From a virus, in the UHGV virus genome UHGV-0114973: 18,293 nt of DNA; one strand, given 5' to 3'. Below, in pieces: positions 1,876 through 17,537 of the stretch. Every line of letters starts with the position of its first letter. Within the stretch, counting starts at the first letter, position 1. The position numbers and the translations under genes are program-made. The notes below the pieces were generated by a model. The model did not search any database. It had not been told where the DNA came from and saw only the letters and a program-made list of their open reading frames with translations.

Positions 1876-4791
1876 ATGGCACAATATCCTATTGATATTA
1901 AGATTGATACCGGTTTGGCTGACCGCAATCTTAACAATCTTAACAGTCAGTTAGATCAGACTGAAAAATCAACCATAGCTGCTGCACAGGCTGCTAATCA
2001 GTTATCTGTGGTTGAACAGCAGGTTGCAAAAGCAGCACAGCAACTGGCACAACAACAAGCTAATCAGGCTGCTAAAGCTGTTGCTGTAGCTAGGGCTACG
2101 CGTGAAGCAGCACAGGAACAATCACGCCTGTTAGCAACACAGGGTGCTGCTGCTCGTGCGGCTGGTCAGACTGTTAATAATCAACAGAAATTTGCTGAAT
2201 TAGCCAAAATTATCAAACAAGCAACTGCTGATGAAAAGAAAGCAATTGACGATTTGACTAACAGTCTTAAAAAACTTGATAATCAGCAGAATAACACTAA
2301 TCAATCAACACAAAAAACTAAAGGCGCTCTTGAAACACTTGTCACTGGTGCAAAAGCGTTTGTTGGTTTACAGATTGCAGGGTCACTTTACGACTGGGGT
2401 AAAGCGTTTGTAGATACTGCAACGAAAGTTGAACTGCTACAGAGTCGCATTAATCTGTACACATCAACGTCGGTTGAATCACAACAGATTTTTGCGCAAT
2501 TAGTACAACAGGCTAACCGTGCTGGTACAGATATTGACGCGGTGGCAAACAGTTTTCAGCGTTTTGCCGCTGCTGGTAAAGATGCCGGGATTAGTAATCA
2601 GGTTATTTTACAGTTTACCGACAACCTGCAAAAAATGGCCCGTGTATCTGGTGCATCCAGTGCTGAAGCATCTGCTGCTATTTATCAATTATCACAGGCA
2701 TTTGCATCTGGTCGTTTGCAGGGGGATGAATTCCGATCTGTGTCAGAACAATTACCAACTGTTCTTCAGGTGCTGGCTAAACAAATGGGTGTCACCACGG
2801 GGGAACTTAAACAATTAGGTTCTGATGGTGAAATTACCCGTGATAAATTGTTGCTGTTAAACAACGCGACTGATGAAATCAGCGCACAGTTCGATAAACT
2901 TCCTCGTTCTGTAGATCAGTCTGCCACTGCGTTACGTAACAACCTGTCTGTGGCTATTGCTGAACTCGATCAGCAGATTGGCGCATCTAAATTCCTGGCT
3001 AAATTCCTAGACCTGTTAGCAGGTGGTGTATCGGGTACAACAGAGTTAATAAAAGCCGCTGCAGGTGCTGACAAACTGGCACAAGCCACTAACAATCTGA
3101 ACAGTGTTACCGCAAAACGTGAAGCCAATCTGAAAGAAATTGCAGATCTGGAAGCACAAATTCAGCGTGGGTATACAACACAGTCAATTGGTGGGTATAC
3201 AAAATTTGTTGGTGACACCAGCGCTGCACAGAAGAAATTAAACGAACTTAAAAAACTTGATGTTCAGTTAACAAAACAACAAGCAGAAGCACAACGAGGG
3301 GTTGTTCAGGCTACTCCATTGGGTAAGGGTGTTGCTGAAAATCTTGCAAATCAGGCAAGCACTTTACAGGCGAGTATTACGGCTGCTCAGGCTGCCGGAC
3401 GTCCTGATGCCGAATCTGCAAAACAGATTAAAAACCTGAAAGAACAGATTACCTATACCCAGGCGCTTGCTGACGGTAACTATGAACTGGCAGCAAGTCA
3501 GAAACTGGGTAACAAAGCAACAAAGGAACAGATTGCAGACTACGCTGCGTTGTTGAAACAACAGGCAGAATATAAAGAAAATCAAAAAAACCAGAAGAAA
3601 TCAGCGAGTGCTGAAGCATCTGCGGCTAAACGTGCACAGAAAGAACTGGAACGTAATCAGGCTGCTAACCAGAAATACCTGAAAACGCTTCAGGATAAAA
3701 TCAATGCTGGTAATTATGATGTTCAGTTAGCACGCGAACAGGTTCAGATTGCTTTAACACAGGGATCGTCTGTTGAACAACTTACAGCAACGTATCAGAA
3801 AGAATATCAGGTACGTCAACAGTTAACGCTGGCTTCACAACAGGCGGAAGCACAGTCACGACTGAATAAAGACGCGACTGATGCTGAACGTGCCGCTGTT
3901 GATGCACATGTAGCTGCATTGCAACGTCAACAGCAGATAGCACAGTTAAGCGCAGATGTAAAACAAGTTGACATTGATGTGAAAGCACAGTTGAACCCGT
4001 ATCAATCACAAATTGATCAGGTTAATCAACAGGAAGCAACACGTCTTAGTATTATTCAAACTGCCCGTGAACAAGATTTAATCAACGAGCAACAATACCA
4101 GGATATGAAAACGCAGATTCAACAGGCTGGGGAACAAGCCCGTACGAATCTTGCAAATGCTAACTACAGCTTGTTGCTACAATCCAGTGCTGATTTTTTG
4201 GGTCAAATGGCTGCTGGTCTGGCACAATCTAAAGGTGAGCAATCAAACGCGTATAAAGCGATGTTTGCACTGTCTAAAGCCTTTAGTATCGCACAGGCGA
4301 GTATTAACCTGTGGACAGCCGTTAGTCAGGCTATGGCGTTGCCGTTCCCGGCGAATATTCCGTTCATTGCACAGGCTTTATCATACGGGACAAGCGTATT
4401 AGGTAACATTCAGTCTGTGGCTGCAACAGGTTTTGCAACGGGTGGTTATGTTAAAGGTCCGGGTACAGGTCAGAGTGACAGTATAAACGCACGTTTGAGT
4501 AATGGTGAATTTGTCAGTACCAAACAGGCTACGAGTCGTTATCGTAGCACTCTGGAAGCAATGAATCGTGGGACATACACCCCCGGATCTGAAGGTGGTT
4601 CATCACCTAATATTCAGGTTCATAACTACGGTGGTGAACGTGTTCAGGTGAAACAAGGATTAACACGGGATGATGTAGTGCTTATCATAGGTGAAGAATT
4701 CCCACGACAATCAGCGGCACAATGGAATGACCCGTACAGTCAGACGAATAAAGCGTTCAGGTCTAACTATGATGCGAACAGGAAAATATAA
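1876..4791 (+). CDS. tail tape measure protein
   Basis: 971-aa ORF, very Ala/Gln-rich with long coiled-coil-type heptad stretches and a Gly-rich hydrophobic C-terminal region. Follows the chaperone pair. At about 0.15 nm per residue the length implies a tail of roughly 145 nm (inference). Confidence 0.9.
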   Translation: MAQYPIDIKIDTGLADRNLNNLNSQLDQTEKSTIAAAQAANQLSVVEQQVAKAAQQLAQQQANQAAKAVAVARATREAAQEQSRLLATQGAAARAAGQTVNNQQKFAELAKIIKQATADEKKAIDDLTNSLKKLDNQQNNTNQSTQKTKGALETLVTGAKAFVGLQIAGSLYDWGKAFVDTATKVELLQSRINLYTSTSVESQQIFAQLVQQANRAGTDIDAVANSFQRFAAAGKDAGISNQVILQFTDNLQKMARVSGASSAEASAAIYQLSQAFASGRLQGDEFRSVSEQLPTVLQVLAKQMGVTTGELKQLGSDGEITRDKLLLLNNATDEISAQFDKLPRSVDQSATALRNNLSVAIAELDQQIGASKFLAKFLDLLAGGVSGTTELIKAAAGADKLAQATNNLNSVTAKREANLKEIADLEAQIQRGYTTQSIGGYTKFVGDTSAAQKKLNELKKLDVQLTKQQAEAQRGVVQATPLGKGVAENLANQASTLQASITAAQAAGRPDAESAKQIKNLKEQITYTQALADGNYELAASQKLGNKATKEQIADYAALLKQQAEYKENQKNQKKSASAEASAAKRAQKELERNQAANQKYLKTLQDKINAGNYDVQLAREQVQIALTQGSSVEQLTATYQKEYQVRQQLTLASQQAEAQSRLNKDATDAERAAVDAHVAALQRQQQIAQLSADVKQVDIDVKAQLNPYQSQIDQVNQQEATRLSIIQTAREQDLINEQQYQDMKTQIQQAGEQARTNLANANYSLLLQSSADFLGQMAAGLAQSKGEQSNAYKAMFALSKAFSIAQASINLWTAVSQAMALPFPANIPFIAQALSYGTSVLGNIQSVAATGFATGGYVKGPGTGQSDSINARLSNGEFVSTKQATSRYRSTLEAMNRGTYTPGSEGGSSPNIQVHNYGGERVQVKQGLTRDDVVLIIGEEFPRQSAAQWNDPYSQTNKAFRSNYDANRKI

Positions 4792-12818: not shown

Positions 12819-13031
12819 ATCTTCAACCGATACTTCAATCCACGATGCGGGAACCGGATATTCAGTCCGGTACATGAACAAGGATGTTCCTATCAACCCG
12901 TGTGGATCTGTTTTAATCCCTCGCATGTTCAACAATGGAAAAAACTGTTCGCGTGTTTGTGGCAATCTTGCAAAGCGTCCTGTCGGGCGTTTAGCAGGAT
13001 CCATAGGGTTGAATTCAACGATTGTGGACAT
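12798..13031 (-). CDS. hypothetical protein (77 aa), last gene of the minus-strand operon
   Basis: ATG at 13031-13029 with AGGAG 8 nt upstream. Overlaps the Dam-like gene's 3' end by 17 nt and the o-spanin 3' end convergently by 21 nt. Confidence 0.4.
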   Translation of the reverse strand: MSTIVEFNPMDPAKRPTGRFARLPQTREQFFPLLNMRGIKTDPHGLIGTSLFMYRTEYPVPASWIEVSVEDLLKTVY

Positions 13032-13536
13032 AACAATAACTCCTGTACGCTTGTCTTTTTATTTTCTGATAGTCGGAAACTTTTACAGATCTTGTTTTAC
13101 ATTCACCAATACGATGTGGGTCGAAAATAAACATCATCTGTGAACGGTCATTTCCTCCTGCTGGTAACCCGGTGTCAGGGTCTACAAACGCTATACGGCC
13201 TTTAAACACCCATAGTTCCGAACAATGTGTCAGTGCTTTGTGAAACCAGTCTGCAGACGTCATAGCGTTCACGAGTAATAACGAACCAGTTCCCTGATGA
13301 ACAGTGGTTATTATTTTATTAACCCAGGGAGACGGATCGCTATACGGTGGGTTGCACCAGACGAACCCACCACCATTACTTTGAACAATCGAATGCCAGT
13401 CTTTATTCAGACTATCAGTGATAAATAACGAACATTTAGCGTTAGAACCATCGGTACACACATCAAGAACAAGTGGGAATTCACGAGAAACGTTATCAAT
13501 AAAATCCCACGGTGTTTCCCAGTTGTCTTTAGCCAT
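13015..13536 (-). CDS. phage Dam-like DNA N6-adenine methyltransferase (orphan)
   Basis: Motifs WETPWDF, LDVCT, the catalytic CNPPYS (the N6-adenine methyltransferase DPPY-type motif) and WFHK. Start taken at the ATG 13536 (MAKDNWETPWDF) rather than the TTG at 13596. No restriction enzyme partner is visible. Confidence 0.8.
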   Translation of the reverse strand: MAKDNWETPWDFIDNVSREFPLVLDVCTDGSNAKCSLFITDSLNKDWHSIVQSNGGGFVWCNPPYSDPSPWVNKIITTVHQGTGSLLLVNAMTSADWFHKALTHCSELWVFKGRIAFVDPDTGLPAGGNDRSQMMFIFDPHRIGECKTRSVKVSDYQKIKRQAYRSYCYVHNR

Positions 13537-13882
13537 GTTCCGGTACGCTCTCCACACTGTAATAAACGGGGATGCCCAGACGTTCAGCTTCTGCAATTTC
13601 TGCTAGCGTACCAGACGAACGACGATAATCAGGAAGCACCAGAACAGCGTCACAGCGGCGCATAATTTCTAACGTACCTGATAGGTAGTATTCAGGTTGT
13701 ATATTGCGTAAACCGCCGTCAAAATCCCACAATTCGGTGTTCTTGTGAGGAATAACCGGGAACCATCCCGGACGTTGTAAAGCCAGTCGTTTACCTGCCT
13801 GTTCAGCGCGTGACACGTTACGGGATGTTTTAAGCGCACAATCAGCACGATAAGGCCCGGCAATGTAACAGAGTTTAATCAT
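13529..13882 (-). CDS. nucleoside 2-deoxyribosyltransferase-like (NDT / DUF1937-type fold) protein
   Basis: Start taken at the ATG 13882 (MIKLCYIAGPY...) with AGGAAA 6 nt upstream. N-terminal YIAGP motif and a later D...SSGTLAEIAEAERLGIPVYY segment match my recollection of the two signature segments of the deoxyribosyltransferase / Rcl-type Rossmann fold. Overlaps both neighbours by 8 nt. Confidence 0.6.
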   Translation of the reverse strand: MIKLCYIAGPYRADCALKTSRNVSRAEQAGKRLALQRPGWFPVIPHKNTELWDFDGGLRNIQPEYYLSGTLEIMRRCDAVLVLPDYRRSSGTLAEIAEAERLGIPVYYSVESVPEHG

Positions 13883-14210
13883 GGTTGTTTTCCTGCATCT
13901 GTAAGAACACAATCATTGCGGCACGGAGTGGGTTAGCGTGAGAACAATAAATTGTAGGTTCGTTAATCATATCCCAACCACATTGATCAAATTCAAAATC
14001 ACCCCAGGCTAACCATTCGTTTTCATTAGTGTCAAACGCAATGCTAATCTTATTTTCAATAATAATCGGCATTGCGTCTGTAGGGTTATTGCAGTAATCA
14101 ACTACTTGATTCACCAGTTCCAGACGATGTTCGTGTGATGGTTCACCGTATAATTTACGACTAACCATTGCGTTGATTGAAATATCACTTAAAACACTGT
14201 AATCAGTCAT
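13875..14210 (-). CDS. small strongly acidic protein (111 aa), DNA-mimic / anti-restriction candidate
   Basis: ATG at 14210-14208 with GAGGGAA upstream, overlapping the previous stop (ATGACTGA). I count about 18 Asp+Glu against 5 Lys+Arg, so the predicted pI is near 4. No recognisable catalytic motif. Confidence 0.5.
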   Translation of the reverse strand: MTDYSVLSDISINAMVSRKLYGEPSHEHRLELVNQVVDYCNNPTDAMPIIIENKISIAFDTNENEWLAWGDFEFDQCGWDMINEPTIYCSHANPLRAAMIVFLQMQENNHD

Positions 14211-14739
14211 GACGATTCATTCCCTCTAACATGTCCCAGATAAGCGCAACACGGCGCGGATCCGTGCTGATAGTGTGTAAAGTTTCACACCCGTAATGCC
14301 ATCCCCAGCGAACGGATAGTTCTGACAACAGGTAACCACGGGAATTAGCCAGCTCAGCCAGTTCACCGGGTTTAAATGTCGTTGTATTAGGTTCTGTAAG
14401 AACACGAGTACCACAGATAGCGTCACTGATGCGCCACGGTTTCATCAGGTCATCAACCTTATACCAGTTACTGATACTGATTTCAGACGTTCCCCAGCGT
14501 GCAGCCAGTTTCAGACGTTCCTGACGGGCCGGGAACATTGGCATCTGTGGTAAACGCAGTTGGATCTGTTCTGCAGGTTCAAACATGTCGTCGTCTGTTA
14601 AACGAAATTCACCACGGTCATCAATATAAAAACCACGGGAACGACCATCACGGGTGAACCCGTCAACACGGTTGTAAATTTTACCGGGAGTAAAGACACC
14701 AATCGGTGAACCAGCTACAAATTTGTGTGAAGTATGCAT
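14203..14739 (-). CDS. hypothetical protein (178 aa)
   Basis: ATG at 14739-14737 with GAGG 8 nt upstream, 39 bp downstream of the PolB stop. Coding-quality ORF translationally coupled to the next gene. No family recognised by eye. Confidence 0.5.
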   Translation of the reverse strand: MHTSHKFVAGSPIGVFTPGKIYNRVDGFTRDGRSRGFYIDDRGEFRLTDDDMFEPAEQIQLRLPQMPMFPARQERLKLAARWGTSEISISNWYKVDDLMKPWRISDAICGTRVLTEPNTTTFKPGELAELANSRGYLLSELSVRWGWHYGCETLHTISTDPRRVALIWDMLEGMNRHD

Positions 14740-14778: not shown

Positions 14779-16635
14779 TTACCGAAGTGGTGCAACGAGT
14801 TTTTCAGCTTCTTTGATGTAAAAATCATAATTGAGCGTTGCCCGGTTAAAACGTTTCATGTCGTTACATTCCGTGGTCAACCAACCTTTGCACACGGACA
14901 TACGGCGCTCAGGCGCGTCAGGGTTCAGTTTCAGTGATTTTGCCAGCGGTGGCATGACTTTTGTCAAAGGTGCACCATCTGTACTGACGTAATAACGGGT
15001 AATGTTCTGAACCTGTTTATCACCCCATAGTAATTTGCTGTTACGTGGTACTTTCGTCACTAACATGAAATCGTGAATATCTTCGTGTGATGTTATAAAA
15101 TCACGAATGTCTTTATTGTGTACCAGTGCTGCTTCAGCCGCTTTTGCGACAACCTGCATACTGTGGTTTTGATGCCAACCCAGATCAACGCTGTGACAAT
15201 AAGCGCCTTTACGTTTAACTTTCTTACCGCCTTCGTAAACAGCGATGTAATTATTTACATCGCGGATAAACATCACGTCATAAATTGCTTCTTCAAGCTG
15301 GAGTCTGGTTAATTTTTCCCACGCGTGACGAACCTGTTCTACTTGTCCGGTAAACACTCGTGGCACGTAAACCGTAAGACCATCTGTGTTAGCCTGGATC
15401 ATGGACAAACCAGGGATTTTCAGAAGTTCTTCAGCCAACATACACAAAAGTAACTGTCCGTTAATCGTAATAGCCATTGTGTAAGCAGGATCGTAGAATG
15501 GACTGTATACGTTATTACTGTCACCATACACACCGTTTAACGCCAGTTTTAACATTGCATTTTCTGGTGTACCTTTCGGGTAACTGGAACGCATGTCGTA
15601 AACATTTTTATAAATGGTGCAAAATTGTTTTCCCAGATGTGCCGGATAAAGTTCATTACTGATCGCAAGGTTCGGATAAAAACTGGCAACGTCCAGATCG
15701 ATGATCACATAATTTTCAGTGGACCTGATAGTTTGAGACTCAATAGACCCGTGGATACCACCCGTACCAAAATCAAACGAGAACCCGTTAATGTCTGCGC
15801 TTAAATCTGTGAATACACCTTTTGTTTCAGTGATAACCTGTTGACGTAACCAGTTAAGAACACGATTAAATTCAGGCTGTTCAAAACGGACATAAGGGAA
15901 AATCACACTGTTCAATGCGATTGATGGTCTGTGCGTCTGTCGTGGTTTTCTGCTACCCGGTTCGAAACATTGAATACCTGATTTTTCAAGTTCCATGATG
16001 AAATATTCTTTACCGATTTTCGTGTCGTTATGGTTCATGAAATTACGACCGTATTTAGCAGAAAGTTCACGACGAAAATCTATCAGCTTTTTACTGTGTT
16101 TATAAAACATCAAAGTCGCTTTCAAATCGTGCATCAGATATTGACGAAGCGTATCAATTTGAGAATCGGTTAAATAAGTCCCTGGCGTAAACGGAAGGTC
16201 TTCAATGTTTTCCATTCTCATATTGAATTCAAGTGTTTTCAGACTTGTTCGTTTTGCCTGATTGTCGAAATGATGAATTTTATACAAATCAAGCTGGGGA
16301 ACTATCCAGTCTTTTTCCCACACCATATGAGCAAAACGATTTTCATCACCAGCGTTAATTATTGAATCACCTTTTTTATAAATGTCTGCGTTGGTGATAT
16401 ACATGATGTTGTTCAAAATAGAATGCTGAACAGGATAGTCGTAACCCAGATTGTTATAACCAATTTCTTCAGCACGATGTTCACGCAAATATTCTGTGAA
16501 CAGGTAAAAAGCCTGACGATCATCGCGACGATGTGAAATCTCAAAAATATAAGGCGTTTCGGTTAACGCGTGAATAGCACCGAACAGAAAAACATTAGGA
16601 TAGTTTTCAATATCGTGAACGTAAGCATCTGACAT
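14779..16635 (-). CDS. compact family-B DNA polymerase with a 3'-5' exonuclease domain
   Basis: 618 aa. Exo I D8-I-E10; Exo II N62-L-G-Y-D66; Exo III Y166-L-M-H-D170 (spacing close to phi29 DNA polymerase); motif A D315-V-A-S-F-Y-P (Dx2SLYP-type); motif B K363-L-A-L-N-G-V-Y-G (Kx3NSxYG-type); motif C N416-T-D418 (an NTD variant of DTD). Motifs are only 48 and 55 aa apart and no TPR-like insertions are evident. Confidence 0.7.
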   Translation of the reverse strand: MSDAYVHDIENYPNVFLFGAIHALTETPYIFEISHRRDDRQAFYLFTEYLREHRAEEIGYNNLGYDYPVQHSILNNIMYITNADIYKKGDSIINAGDENRFAHMVWEKDWIVPQLDLYKIHHFDNQAKRTSLKTLEFNMRMENIEDLPFTPGTYLTDSQIDTLRQYLMHDLKATLMFYKHSKKLIDFRRELSAKYGRNFMNHNDTKIGKEYFIMELEKSGIQCFEPGSRKPRQTHRPSIALNSVIFPYVRFEQPEFNRVLNWLRQQVITETKGVFTDLSADINGFSFDFGTGGIHGSIESQTIRSTENYVIIDLDVASFYPNLAISNELYPAHLGKQFCTIYKNVYDMRSSYPKGTPENAMLKLALNGVYGDSNNVYSPFYDPAYTMAITINGQLLLCMLAEELLKIPGLSMIQANTDGLTVYVPRVFTGQVEQVRHAWEKLTRLQLEEAIYDVMFIRDVNNYIAVYEGGKKVKRKGAYCHSVDLGWHQNHSMQVVAKAAEAALVHNKDIRDFITSHEDIHDFMLVTKVPRNSKLLWGDKQVQNITRYYVSTDGAPLTKVMPPLAKSLKLNPDAPERRMSVCKGWLTTECNDMKRFNRATLNYDFYIKEAEKLVAPLR

Positions 16636-16656
16636 AATAAAACCCTGATAAGTAAA

Positions 16657-16674
16657 TGGGGCACTATGGCCCCA
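16657..16674 (-). other. hairpin between the 273-aa gene and the PolB gene
   Basis: TGGGGC, loop ACTATG, GCCCCA. On the minus strand it is followed by TTTACTTATCAGGGTTTTATT directly before the PolB ATG. May act as an attenuator or processing site. Confidence 0.3.
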
Positions 16675-16715
16675 TGTCTGTTTAAAGCGGTATATCGTCC
16701 CAGTTCCAGTAACTA

Positions 16716-17537
16716 TCAGTAACCGTTACCGTTGAGAAAATTCGGGGCCGGGGTGGTCATTACCATATAACCATTAGCAATCAGTTGTTCATCGTTCCAA
16801 CCTTGCGCAATAAACTGTTCGTAAGTTGCACCACCTGCTTTTTCAGTCATTACTTTTACAGGTGCTGCCGCTGGTGTAGGCGCTGCTACAGGTGCTGCCG
16901 CTGGTGTAGGCGCTGCTACAGGTGCTGCCGCTGGTGTTACGCCGATCGGACGTGCACCTTCAGGCATTGCAGGAGCAGCGCCAAACACAGAGGCAGGAGC
17001 CGGACCGGAAATGATTTCTTCACCCGCATAAAGCAATTGCGCCATTTCCATGTTGATATACACACCAGCCTGGTTACCTGTACGACCGTTTGCAACAGAT
17101 GATCCGCTGATACGGTAGTAATAACCTTTTTTCGCCAGATTTTTATCAATAACTGGCTGGTACGCTGCGTTATAAACCGGACACGCGTCAATAGCCACGT
17201 TGCGTGAGAAACCAATTACCCAGTGACCAGCATAACCAGTTTTACTCGCATGTTTCGGATCATCACCGTTAATAATTTTCCATGCGAAAGTAGGTTGTTG
17301 TGGTTCGCCGTTCACATAGTGTGAGTTCGCCGCTCGCATAATCGCCTGGAATACCGCACCCAGTTCACCTTGTTCTTCCCACCAGTTCGCCGCTGTTTTA
17401 GGAAACGCCAGACCAACCCACCAGTTGTGTTTTTCAGGTGCTAACGGTTTATTTTCGTGGTCATGAGTGTTGATATCGAAAAAAGAACCGCCAACCAGAC
17501 GACCAACCGGAGTTACAAAAGATTCTTTCTGTGCCAT
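16716..17537 (-). CDS. replication-associated protein with a PA-rich repeat linker; possibly an ssDNA-binding protein
   Basis: 273 aa with AGAAGG ribosome-binding site 8 nt upstream. The N-terminus MAQKESFVTPVG loosely resembles the start of T7 gp2.5-type SSBs, which is weak evidence. Three tandem PAAAPVAAPT units form a linker before a short C-terminal domain. Sits directly upstream of PolB in the same operon. Confidence 0.45.
   Translation of the reverse strand: MAQKESFVTPVGRLVGGSFFDINTHDHENKPLAPEKHNWWVGLAFPKTAANWWEEQGELGAVFQAIMRAANSHYVNGEPQQPTFAWKIINGDDPKHASKTGYAGHWVIGFSRNVAIDACPVYNAAYQPVIDKNLAKKGYYYRISGSSVANGRTGNQAGVYINMEMAQLLYAGEEIISGPAPASVFGAAPAMPEGARPIGVTPAAAPVAAPTPAAAPVAAPTPAAAPVKVMTEKAGGATYEQFIAQGWNDEQLIANGYMVMTTPAPNFLNGNGY
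16861..16937. repeat. 30-bp tandem repeat, about 2.6 copies
   Basis: GGTGCTGCCGCTGGTGTAGGCGCTGCTACA occurs at 16861-16890 and 16891-16920, with a partial third copy at 16921-16937. It lies inside the 273-aa gene and encodes the PAAAPVAAPT repeats. Confidence 0.9.

What the first reader, a model, noticed from the sequence alone, without database searches (positions are those of the whole stretch)
13875..14210. Strongly acidic 111-aa protein, a candidate DNA mimic
I count about 18 acidic against 5 basic residues (predicted pI near 4), several aromatics and no catalytic motif. It is translationally coupled within the cassette next to the Dam-like gene. Size and charge resemble known DNA-mimic inhibitors such as Ocr-like and ArdA-like anti-restriction proteins.
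Basis: inference. Interest (0 to 1): 0.55.

Follow-up and report, generated by a model that had tools for sequence, protein, structure and literature searches.

The report
Acidic NinX-family phage accessory protein
The acidic 111-residue protein is real, but it belongs to the widespread phage family NinX (DUF2591), whose function is unknown, and not to the Ocr or ArdA families; it sits in a gene slot that related phages keep reshuffling, and DNA mimicry remains an untested possibility.

Summary
Observation confirmed. ORF 13875-14210 (- strand) encodes 111 aa with 18 D/E, 5 K/R, pI 4.31 and 11 aromatics. It joins both neighbours by 8-nt overlaps. Dam is two genes downstream, not adjacent.

Identity: Pfam PF10765 (P22 NinX/DUF2591) above the gathering score, and phrog_444. 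Orthologues in Sashavirus records are already annotated NinX. No function is described. The confident AF2 model matches only two uncharacterised PDB structures (BC1872, 1r7l; 4pup). There is no sequence or fold link to Ocr or ArdA.

Main finding: in nine close relatives, flanking genes are mostly 97-100% identical (Ndt-like 89.5% in two), while this slot holds NinX alleles at 42-72% identity. In more distant 9NA-like phages it is 37-43%. In others the slot holds an unrelated T4 arn.1-like gene or nothing. Alleles are mosaics: 9 N-terminal by 10 central modules, shuffled at conserved motifs. Central-module charge runs from -8 (this one) to +4 (the commonest). A near-neutral allele folds the same way.

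Best reading (inferred): a dispensable, non-enzymatic binding protein with a conserved scaffold and a swappable specificity module, involved in phage-host conflict. DNA mimicry is possible for this acidic allele but is not a family property. Interest is modest.

The parts
13875..14210 (-). NinX-family (PF10765/DUF2591) CDS, 111 aa, pI 4.31, net charge -13
   Evidence: ORF list. Composition. Pfam PF10765 at 35.2 bits against a gathering score of 22.6. phrog_444 at 3e-31. 189 homologues, nearly all PF10765.
14222..14226 (-). Shine-Dalgarno-like GAGGG, 11 nt upstream of the NinX ATG, inside the 3' end of the upstream gene
   Evidence: Read from the sequence. The Sergei record annotates an RBS at the equivalent position.
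14203..14210 (-). 8-nt overlap ATGACTGA between the stop of the 178-aa upstream gene and the NinX start
   Evidence: Sequence and ORF coordinates.
14079..14210 (-). N-terminal helical module (residues 1-44, type N0, net -3); exchangeable between alleles
   Evidence: Model helices at 8-20 and 25-32 in a numbering that omits the initial Met. Mosaic DNA alignment. Module clustering.
14043..14078 (-). Conserved joint DAMPIIIENKIS (residues 45-56; helix 3 into strand 1). It is conserved at DNA level even with E. coli prophage NinX genes and acts as a recombination joint.
   Evidence: Protein alignment. DNA alignment breakpoints. The only segment that matches E. coli genomes is nt 112-170, at 83% identity.
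13935..14042 (-). Hypervariable central module (residues 57-92, type C0: IAFDTNENEWLAWGDFEFDQCGWDMINEPTIYCSHA). It has 8 acidic and 0 basic residues plus 3 W and 3 F. It forms strands 1-3 and the long beta2-beta3 loop, and is the proposed target-binding surface.
   Evidence: composition. (strands; the lowest block pLDDT, 75, falls in the loop). (module types, charge -8 to +4).
13878..13934 (-). Conserved C-terminal helix NPLRAAMIVFLQMQENNHD (residues 93-111) containing the family-invariant R96, A97, M99 and L103; it is the second recombination joint
   Evidence: Invariant columns (that numbering omits the initial Met). DNA alignment.
13875..13882 (-). 8-nt overlap ATGATTAA between the NinX stop and the probable ATG start of the downstream Ndt-like gene
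   Evidence: Sequence. The ATG at 13882 is in frame with ORF 13529..13912. Relatives annotate 351-354-nt genes here.
14203..14739 (-). Upstream neighbour, 178 aa, phrog_19205 of unknown function, 98.9-100% identical in close relatives
13529..13882 (-). Downstream neighbour, 117 aa, nucleoside 2-deoxyribosyltransferase / dNMP N-hydrolase-like (DUF7768/DUF4406, phrog_355)
13015..13536 (-). Dam-family N6-adenine methyltransferase (PF05869). The probable start is ATG 13536, giving 173 aa and an 8-nt overlap with the Ndt-like gene.
   Evidence: Gene lengths in AVIO78A and Bas82.

Best explanation
The gene encodes a member of the NinX (PF10765/DUF2591) family. These are small, stand-alone, cytoplasmic phage accessory proteins.

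Shown: the protein has a compact alpha+beta fold of three N-terminal helices followed by an alpha-beta-beta-beta-alpha unit. This fold is shared with two uncharacterised structures, BC1872 (1r7l) and 4pup.

Shown: the family-wide conserved residues are hydrophobic core positions and helix N-cap-like motifs, not a catalytic constellation.

Shown: the segment between the two conserved motifs (strands 1-3 and the beta2-beta3 loop) is a hypervariable cassette, and it recombines independently of the N-terminal module.

Shown: the whole gene occupies a fixed, translationally coupled slot in the DNA polymerase-to-Dam operon. In related phages this slot carries very different alleles, an unrelated gene, or nothing.

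Inferred: the protein is dispensable for core replication. It acts stoichiometrically by binding a host protein, or a protein of a competing element, through the variable module. The conserved helices serve only as a scaffold. The diversity reflects a phage-host conflict such as counter-defence or host takeover.

Inferred: this window's allele (N0+C0) carries the most acidic and aromatic-rich module (net -8 over 36 residues). That module would suit docking onto a basic surface, possibly a nucleic-acid-binding one. This is the sense in which a local DNA-mimic-like mode remains possible.
For: Family membership: Pfam PF10765 above the gathering score and phrog_444. 189 homologues are nearly all PF10765. 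There are 2067 clusters at 50% identity, and the top 150 are all 97-138 aa with a single domain. Orthologues are annotated NinX in Sergei, Solent and AVIO78A.

No enzyme signature: the invariant residues are R, A, M and L, and the near-invariant ones are mostly hydrophobic.

Slot variability: among seven GenBank relatives, pol, orf178 and the SSB-like gene are 94-100% identical, but NinX is 42-72% or absent. Across 15 loci the slot can also be empty (L011) or hold a T4 arn.1-like gene (PJ16).

Intragenic mosaic: DNA breakpoints fall at the conserved motifs. There are 9 N-module and 10 central-module types, with 6 four-gamete quartets.

Selection: dN/dS is 0.37, against 0.06 (pol, orf178), 0.08 (Ndt-like) and 0 (orf77).

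Scaffold independent of charge: a pI 6.9 allele gives the same architecture at pLDDT 88.9.

No conserved partner gene in unrelated phages.
Against: No experiment or publication assigns any function to NinX; the literature searches found only annotation mentions.

Hypervariability and mosaicism are also typical of functionally neutral or merely dispensable nin-region genes. They do not prove a conflict role.

The dN/dS estimate rests on few substitutions (19 synonymous, 28 non-synonymous, summed over six non-independent pairs).

No target is identified.

The only hint from the alternative slot occupant, the PHROG name 'anti-restriction nuclease', appears to be a name propagated from T4 arn to its neighbours arn.1/arn.2. 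It is therefore not evidence.
Confidence: 0.45

Rival explanations
1. One reading: this allele is a true DNA mimic. It presents a phosphate-like array of carboxylates and competitively blocks a DNA-binding defence enzyme (type I R-M, BREX, RecBCD or similar), making it a functional analogue of Ocr, ArdA, Arn or Gp5.9.
For: Net charge per residue is -0.117, a value reached by only 3 of 32 small T7 proteins, two of which are DNA mimics. The charge is concentrated in the surface-variable module (8 acidic, 0 basic in 36 residues). Across the family, longer central modules are more acidic (r = -0.68; median central charge -4), and 73% of family representatives have pI below 5. The gene sits in an accessory, fast-evolving slot. 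DNA mimics have many unrelated folds, so lack of fold similarity does not exclude this (established knowledge).
Against: There is no homology to Ocr or ArdA by sequence or fold. The D+E fraction is 0.16, against 0.29 for Ocr and 0.25 for Gp5.9. Same-slot alleles carry neutral or basic modules: C2 at +4 is the commonest, and 37% of alleles have pI above 5.5. These fold identically, so charge is not what the family conserves. Only D9, D45 and E107 are conserved acidic positions, and two of them lie in helix N-cap-like motifs. The spatial arrangement of carboxylates could not be examined.
Confidence: 0.15
2. NinX is an accessory factor of phage DNA replication, recombination or nucleotide metabolism. 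For example, it could modulate the adjacent DNA polymerase, the Gp2.5-like SSB or the Ndt-like enzyme, perhaps through an SSB-tail-like acidic/aromatic loop.
For: It is operonic and translationally coupled with the DNA polymerase, the Ndt-like gene and Dam. In lambdoid phages it lies in the nin region among NinB, RusA, NinG and Dam. It lies near ribonucleotide reductase genes in Klebsiella phage FBKp34. The acidic/aromatic loop WGDFEFDQCGWDM loosely recalls acidic SSB C-termini (inference from memory, not tested).
Against: The putative partners are 97-100% conserved in close relatives while NinX alleles differ by up to 58%. The slot can be empty or hold an unrelated gene with all neighbours intact. 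The family also occurs inside tail-gene clusters as a moron-like islet and next to a tape-measure gene. No gene co-occurs with it consistently.
Confidence: 0.15
3. NinX is a nucleic-acid-binding protein, since its C-terminal half has dsRBD-like alpha-beta-beta-beta-alpha topology.
Against: These scores reflect topology only. pI is 4.3 with 5 basic residues, and only one Arg is conserved family-wide. The family median pI is 4.66.
Confidence: 0.04
4. NinX is a dispensable passenger gene with no selected function in this phage, and its variability reflects neutral drift and mosaic recombination.
For: The slot can be empty. dN/dS is elevated relative to the neighbours. No function is reported anywhere.
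Against: ORFs are intact across 2067 clusters at 50% identity. dN/dS is 0.37, still below 1. Invariant motifs are strictly kept and two divergent alleles give confident folds. Synonymous divergence of one allele type is lower than in its flanks (0.047 against 0.11-0.15), which suggests recent horizontal spread rather than decay.
Confidence: 0.08

Closest known systems
Phage P22 NinX family (Pfam PF10765, DUF2591; PHROG 444; NCBI name 'phage protein NinX family protein')
   Same: Full-length match above Pfam's gathering score. Same size, same three conserved motifs (MTDYSxLSDxEIN, DYCNNPxDAWPII, NPLRAAMIVFL), and same stand-alone single-domain architecture. Orthologues in the same slot of Sashavirus/Nonanavirus phages are already annotated NinX.
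   Different: Nothing that defines the family differs. This allele lies at the acidic extreme: only 12% of representatives have pI <= 4.31 and 7% have net charge <= -13. It is in a lytic 9NA-like phage's replication operon rather than a lambdoid nin region. The family has no known function.
BC1872 from a Bacillus cereus prophage (PDB 1r7l) and an uncharacterised Burkholderia cenocepacia J2315 protein (PDB 4pup/4qyb)
   Different: Only 13-17% identity. A profile of the family does not detect them by sequence. Both are structural-genomics entries without a function, so they add no mechanism.
T7 Ocr (gp0.3) and the ArdA anti-restriction DNA mimics
   Same: Similar size (117 aa for Ocr), very low K+R content (0.05), acidic pI, no catalytic motif, and an early/accessory phage gene in a variable slot (slot behaviour).
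T7 Gp1.2 (dGTPase inhibitor, PDB 7u65 chain G)
   Different: The score is at the level of generic dsRBD-like matches. There is no sequence relationship, and Gp1.2 is not strongly acidic (pI 5.1). This is a lead only.

Membership tests
NinX / DUF2591 (Pfam PF10765) | Full-length match to the family HMM above the curated gathering score | tested here: met
   35.2 bits against a cut-off of 22.6, E 1.6e-8, residues 4-106 on profile positions 2-114 of 114. phrog_444 at E 3.1e-31.
NinX / DUF2591 (Pfam PF10765) | Conserved motifs and a stand-alone single-domain protein of about 100-135 aa | tested here: met
   Alignment A1 has invariant R, A, M and L in NPLRAAMIVFL, with near-invariant Y, S, D, I, V, A, I, I, I, N. 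The top 150 of 2067 clusters are all 97-138 aa with one matched stretch.
NinX / DUF2591 (Pfam PF10765) | Phage or prophage origin, in an early/accessory (nin-type) gene neighbourhood | tested here: met
   523 phage records hold a homologue. Contexts are shown. The window is 95.8% identical to Sashavirus 536P12.
Ocr (T7 gp0.3) family | Sequence homology to Ocr | tested here: not met
   Pfam scan at E<=1 returns only PF10765. BLASTP against T7 Ocr finds no alignment at E<=100.
Ocr (T7 gp0.3) family | All-helical elongated dimer fold that mimics bent B-DNA | tested here: not met
Ocr (T7 gp0.3) family | Very high carboxylate density (about 29% D+E, net about -0.24 per residue) | tested here: not met
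   16% D+E and -0.117 per residue, against 29% and -0.239 for Ocr computed from the T7 record.
ArdA family | Sequence homology to ArdA (Pfam ArdA family) and its three-domain elongated fold | tested here: not met
DNA-mimic proteins (a functional class, not a homologous family) | Surface array of carboxylates that reproduces DNA phosphate spacing | not testable with these tools
   Model coordinates are not exposed, so no surface or electrostatic calculation was possible. Only the positions of acidic residues along the secondary structure could be read.
DNA-mimic proteins (a functional class, not a homologous family) | Negative charge conserved among homologues as the selected property | tested here: not met
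   Family pI ranges from 4.05 to 8.6. Same-slot alleles range from 4.10 to 8.62, with 37% above 5.5. Central modules run from -8 to +4. Only three acidic positions are conserved at 95% or more.
DNA-mimic proteins (a functional class, not a homologous family) | Competitive binding to the DNA-binding site of a target protein | not testable with these tools
   This requires biochemistry or genetics.

The most novel reading that the evidence does not exclude
NinX proteins are a very large, unrecognised family of modular phage counter-defence inhibitors. A conserved helical scaffold displays a swappable beta-hairpin/loop cassette that determines which host immune or DNA-binding protein is blocked. 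Phages exchange these cassettes by recombination at two conserved motif-coding joints. The acidic, aromatic-rich C0 cassette in this window would act as a local DNA or nucleotide mimic against a DNA-binding defence component.
Probability: 0.15. Interest if true: 0.7.

Novelty: new member of a known kind. Interest (0 to 1): 0.33.

Why it matters
NinX/DUF2591 is one of the more common phage families of unknown function. It has at least 2067 clusters at 50% identity and homologues in 523 GenBank phage records, across Escherichia, Salmonella, Klebsiella, Vibrio and other hosts.

This analysis does not reveal its function, but it narrows the options. The family looks non-enzymatic and has a conserved scaffold. 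Its central module is shuffled combinatorially and differs sharply in charge between phages that are otherwise nearly identical. That pattern makes it a reasonable candidate for anti-defence or host-takeover screens. It also supplies natural allele series (N0/N1 combined with C0-C3 in isogenic-like backgrounds) for testing specificity.

For the scan itself, the lesson is that acidity alone is a weak predictor of DNA mimicry. Here it is a property of one allele, not of the family.

Tried and rejected
1. Sequence search of the PDB with the single protein and with a family profile found no meaningful hit. The BirA and ABC-transporter matches, at E 0.4-0.7, were judged chance.

2. NCBIfam and PADLOC gave no hits.

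The BFVD search returned only uncharacterised phage proteins.

4. Literature searches for NinX, DUF2591, PF10765, BC1872, 1r7l and 4pup found annotation mentions only, with no functional study. The BC1872 structure paper is not held.

5. The Drc (LUZ7 gp14) paper only cites BC1872 as an example of an ORFan structure and has no structural link to it.

6. The PHROG label 'anti-restriction nuclease' on the gene that replaces NinX in PJ16 was considered as support for an anti-restriction slot. I rejected it as evidence because the T4 homologue lies on arn.1/arn.2, not arn, and there is no Pfam family.

7. Searching for domain fusions that might hint at function found none in the top 150 representatives.

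8. Searching for a conserved neighbour gene across unrelated phages found none.

9. Co-variation of NinX allele type with Dam type showed no link. The same central module (C3) occurs with the 193-aa Dam in BDX09P1 and AVIO78A, and with loci that give no match to that Dam (L009, L010).

10. A DNA search of 5426 E. coli genomes matched only the 59-nt conserved joint.

Full report
WHAT IS THERE. The window is a stretch of a 9NA-like siphophage. Its right-hand 6.9 kb is 95.8% identical to Sashavirus 536P12 and 96% to Escherichia phage PJ16. The finding's coordinates, 13875-14210 on the - strand, are an ATG-started ORF of 111 codons.

The gene lies in a run of - strand genes: DNA polymerase (14779-16635), a 178-aa protein of unknown function (14203-14739), this gene, a 117-aa nucleoside-2-deoxyribosyltransferase/dNMP-N-hydrolase-like gene (13529-13882), a Dam-family methyltransferase (13015-13536), and a 77-aa ORF. 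Three consecutive junctions are 8-nt overlaps of the form CATGnnTrA, at 14203-14210, 13875-13882 and 13529-13536. Translational coupling is therefore a fair reading.

Dam is one gene removed, not adjacent. A terminator-like hairpin lies upstream of the polymerase gene (16656-16675), and there is no convincing sigma-70 promoter inside the run.

IS THE ACIDITY UNUSUAL? Partly. I used the annotated T7 proteome as a yardstick. Only 3 of its 32 proteins of 150 aa or fewer reach a net charge of -0.117 per residue, and two of those are the DNA mimics Ocr and Gp5.9. However, the D+E fraction here (0.16) equals that of many ordinary small phage proteins. The low pI is due mainly to the lack of Lys and Arg, and the charge density is half that of Ocr (-0.239, D+E 0.29).

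WHAT IT IS. The protein matches Pfam PF10765 (Phage_P22_NinX, formerly DUF2591) over its full length, at 35.2 bits against a gathering score of 22.6. It matches phrog_444, of unknown function, at E 3e-31. NCBIfam, PADLOC and a PDB sequence search gave nothing.

A word-indexed search found 189 homologues, almost all PF10765. An exhaustive profile search found 2067 clusters at 50% identity. The top 150 are all single-domain proteins of 97-138 aa, with no fusions. tblastn finds homologues in 523 GenBank phage records covering Vibrio, Escherichia, Salmonella, Klebsiella and other hosts.

The orthologous genes of Sergei, Solent, AVIO78A and 9NA are already annotated 'NinX'. Full-text searches found no functional study of NinX/DUF2591.

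FOLD. AlphaFold2 with an 84-sequence alignment gives a confident model: pLDDT 89.8, pTM 0.84. It has three N-terminal helices followed by an alpha-beta-beta-beta-alpha unit. The least confident part is the long beta2-beta3 loop.

A family profile does not reach 1r7l or 4pup by sequence. BFVD returns only uncharacterised phage proteins. No Ocr, ArdA, Arn, Ugi, Gam or anti-CRISPR mimic appears in the lists. BLASTP against T7 Ocr finds nothing. The protein is therefore not a member of the Ocr or ArdA families.

CONSERVATION PATTERN. The invariant and near-invariant columns are hydrophobic core positions plus three motifs: SDxEIN, NNPxDAWPII and NPLRAAM. I read these as helix N-caps and helix faces. 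No catalytic constellation is evident.

Only three acidic positions (D9, D45, E107) are conserved at 95% or more. The family as a whole leans acidic: median pI is 4.66, and 73% of representatives are below 5. It also includes neutral and basic members, and this protein is in the acidic tail.

THE UNEXPECTED PART: A HYPERVARIABLE, MODULAR SLOT. I first compared the window with seven GenBank relatives. The polymerase is 98.7-99.4% identical, the 178-aa protein 98.9-100%, the SSB-like protein 94-100%, and the Ndt-like protein 97-99% in five phages and 89.5% in Sergei and Solent. The 77-aa protein is 92-100% identical. Dam is 95-96% where present, but Sergei and Solent carry a longer methylase that gives no match. 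NinX, in contrast, is only 42-72% identical, and PJ16 has an unrelated 75-aa gene in its place.

Extending the comparison to 15 loci shows more. Two further close relatives, L009 and L010, carry a NinX about 46-47% identical. In the more distant 9NA-like loci (flanking genes 83-92% identical) NinX is 37-43% identical. The slot is empty in L011, where the 178-aa gene overlaps the Ndt-like gene directly. L016 gives no NinX match and has only an anomalous 78-aa ORF of doubtful coding status. Allele pI ranges from 4.3 to 7.0.

A DNA alignment shows clean mosaics. The window and 536P12 share the N-terminal half but not the centre. 536P12 and BDX09P1 share the centre but not the N-terminal half. Bas82 has the BDX09P1 N-terminal half with yet another centre. 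The breakpoints lie in the DNA that codes for DAMPIIIENKIS and HANPLRAAM. The first of these is the only segment that matches E. coli prophage NinX genes at DNA level.

Among 54 alleles that carry the 9NA-type C-terminal tail, I find 9 N-module and 10 central-module clusters at 60% identity. Six module quartets show all four combinations, which is four-gamete evidence for recombination within the gene.

Central-module net charge runs from -8 (C0, the window's type, n = 12) to +4 (C2, the commonest, n = 15). 37% of these alleles have pI above 5.5. A near-neutral allele (P0059, pI 6.9) is predicted with the same architecture and the same confidence, pLDDT 88.9.

Among four phages that share one allele type, dN/dS is 0.37 for NinX. 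It is 0.06 for the polymerase and the 178-aa gene, 0.08 for the Ndt-like gene and 0 for the 77-aa ORF. NinX synonymous divergence is lower than that of the flanks. The counts are small: 19 synonymous and 28 non-synonymous changes over six non-independent pairs.

CONTEXT ELSEWHERE. In lambdoid phages the gene lies in the nin region, as NinE-NinX-NinI or as Lar-NinX-...-NinB-Dam. In Klebsiella phage KlebP_265 it lies in a short opposite-strand islet inside the tail genes. In FBKp34 it lies near ribonucleotide reductase genes. In Vibrio phage H2 it lies before the tape-measure gene. No partner gene recurs.

INTERPRETATION. The following are shown:
- The protein is a NinX family member.
- It has the BC1872-like fold.
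- There is no enzyme-like conservation.
- The scaffold is conserved and the central cassette is hypervariable and recombining.
- The slot is dispensable and replaceable.

The following is inferred: the protein is a stoichiometric binding protein whose variable cassette determines its target, engaged in phage-host (or phage-phage) conflict. I put this at about 0.45.

In its favour, the charge sits on the probable interaction module, and across the family long cassettes tend to be acidic (r = -0.68 between length and charge). Against it, charge is not what the family or the slot conserves. Carboxylate density is modest. The spatial arrangement of the acidic residues could not be checked because the model coordinates are not exposed.

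Rivals are a replication or nucleotide-metabolism accessory (0.15), a passenger gene (0.08) and a nucleic-acid binder (0.04).

CAVEATS. The PHROG name 'anti-restriction nuclease' for the gene that replaces NinX in PJ16 looked supportive but is not. The T4 homologue is arn.1/arn.2, neighbours of arn, so the name seems to have been propagated. Module clustering used regular expressions for the motif boundaries and a 60% identity threshold, and the sample mixes close and distant sequences. The slot assignment of the 54 alleles is inferred from their shared C-terminal tail, not from their contigs.

VERDICT. It is an already-named family of unknown function and not an Ocr/ArdA relative. DNA mimicry is unproven and is not a family trait. 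The most useful new point is the combinatorial module shuffling, with large charge swings, in an otherwise nearly invariant operon. That makes NinX a sensible candidate for counter-defence screening. Interest is modest, at 0.33.

Noticed in passing
window 13529-13882 (-) and 13015-13536 (-): A nucleoside 2-deoxyribosyltransferase / 2'-deoxynucleoside 5'-phosphate N-hydrolase-like gene (DUF7768/DUF4406, phrog_355) is translationally coupled to a Dam methyltransferase. A recent preprint (PMC12871103), and a study it cites, report bacterial defences that are triggered by Dam-derived m6-dAMP. A phage dNMP N-hydrolase next to its own Dam could conceivably destroy that signal. This is speculation: the preprint does not mention such enzymes.
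   Followed up: partly
L001:5953-6180 (PJ16), equivalent to window 13875-14210: In phage PJ16 the NinX slot holds an unrelated basic 75-aa gene. It is homologous (40-57% identity) to T4-like arn.1/arn.2 genes and is found in 802 phage records. PHROG 4452 calls it 'anti-restriction nuclease', which looks like a name propagated from the neighbouring T4 arn gene rather than a tested function.
   Followed up: yes
window 13015-13596; L003 and L006 (Sergei, Solent); L009, L010: The methyltransferase slot is also variable. Sergei and Solent carry a methylase gene of about 1170-1182 nt in place of the 173-aa Dam, and two IMG/VR relatives give no match to the window's Dam.
   Followed up: partly
window 14203-14210, 13875-13882, 13529-13536: Three successive gene junctions share the same 8-nt overlap architecture, CATGnnTrA. 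The upstream protein ends His-Asp or His-Gly and then stops, with the next gene's ATG embedded in that sequence. The shared junctions may ease cassette exchange, and they constrain the NinX C-terminus to ...NNHD.
   Followed up: partly
window 16716-17537 (-): The 273-aa protein upstream of the polymerase is annotated in Bas82 as a Gp2.5-like ssDNA-binding/annealing protein. It contains a tandem Ala/Pro-rich repeat (TPAAAPVAAP, repeated). Gene length differs between relatives, 822 nt here and in Solent against 852-864 nt in Sergei and PJ16 and 1032 nt in AVIO78A and Bas82. Sergei annotates a direct tandem repeat there.
   Followed up: no
window 14203-14739 (-): The 178-aa protein translationally coupled upstream of NinX (phrog_19205) has no Pfam, NCBIfam or PADLOC match. 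It is 98.9-100% conserved in close relatives and 83-87% in more distant 9NA-like phages, so it is a conserved unknown in the replication operon.
   Followed up: partly
L016:about 3030-3270 (IMGVR_UViG_3300022758_000114): In this 9NA-like contig the NinX slot (a 232-nt gap) contains only an odd 78-aa ORF rich in Tyr, Asn and Phe, with no family match (E > 0.003 in PHROGs). It may be non-coding or a degraded insert.
   Followed up: partly
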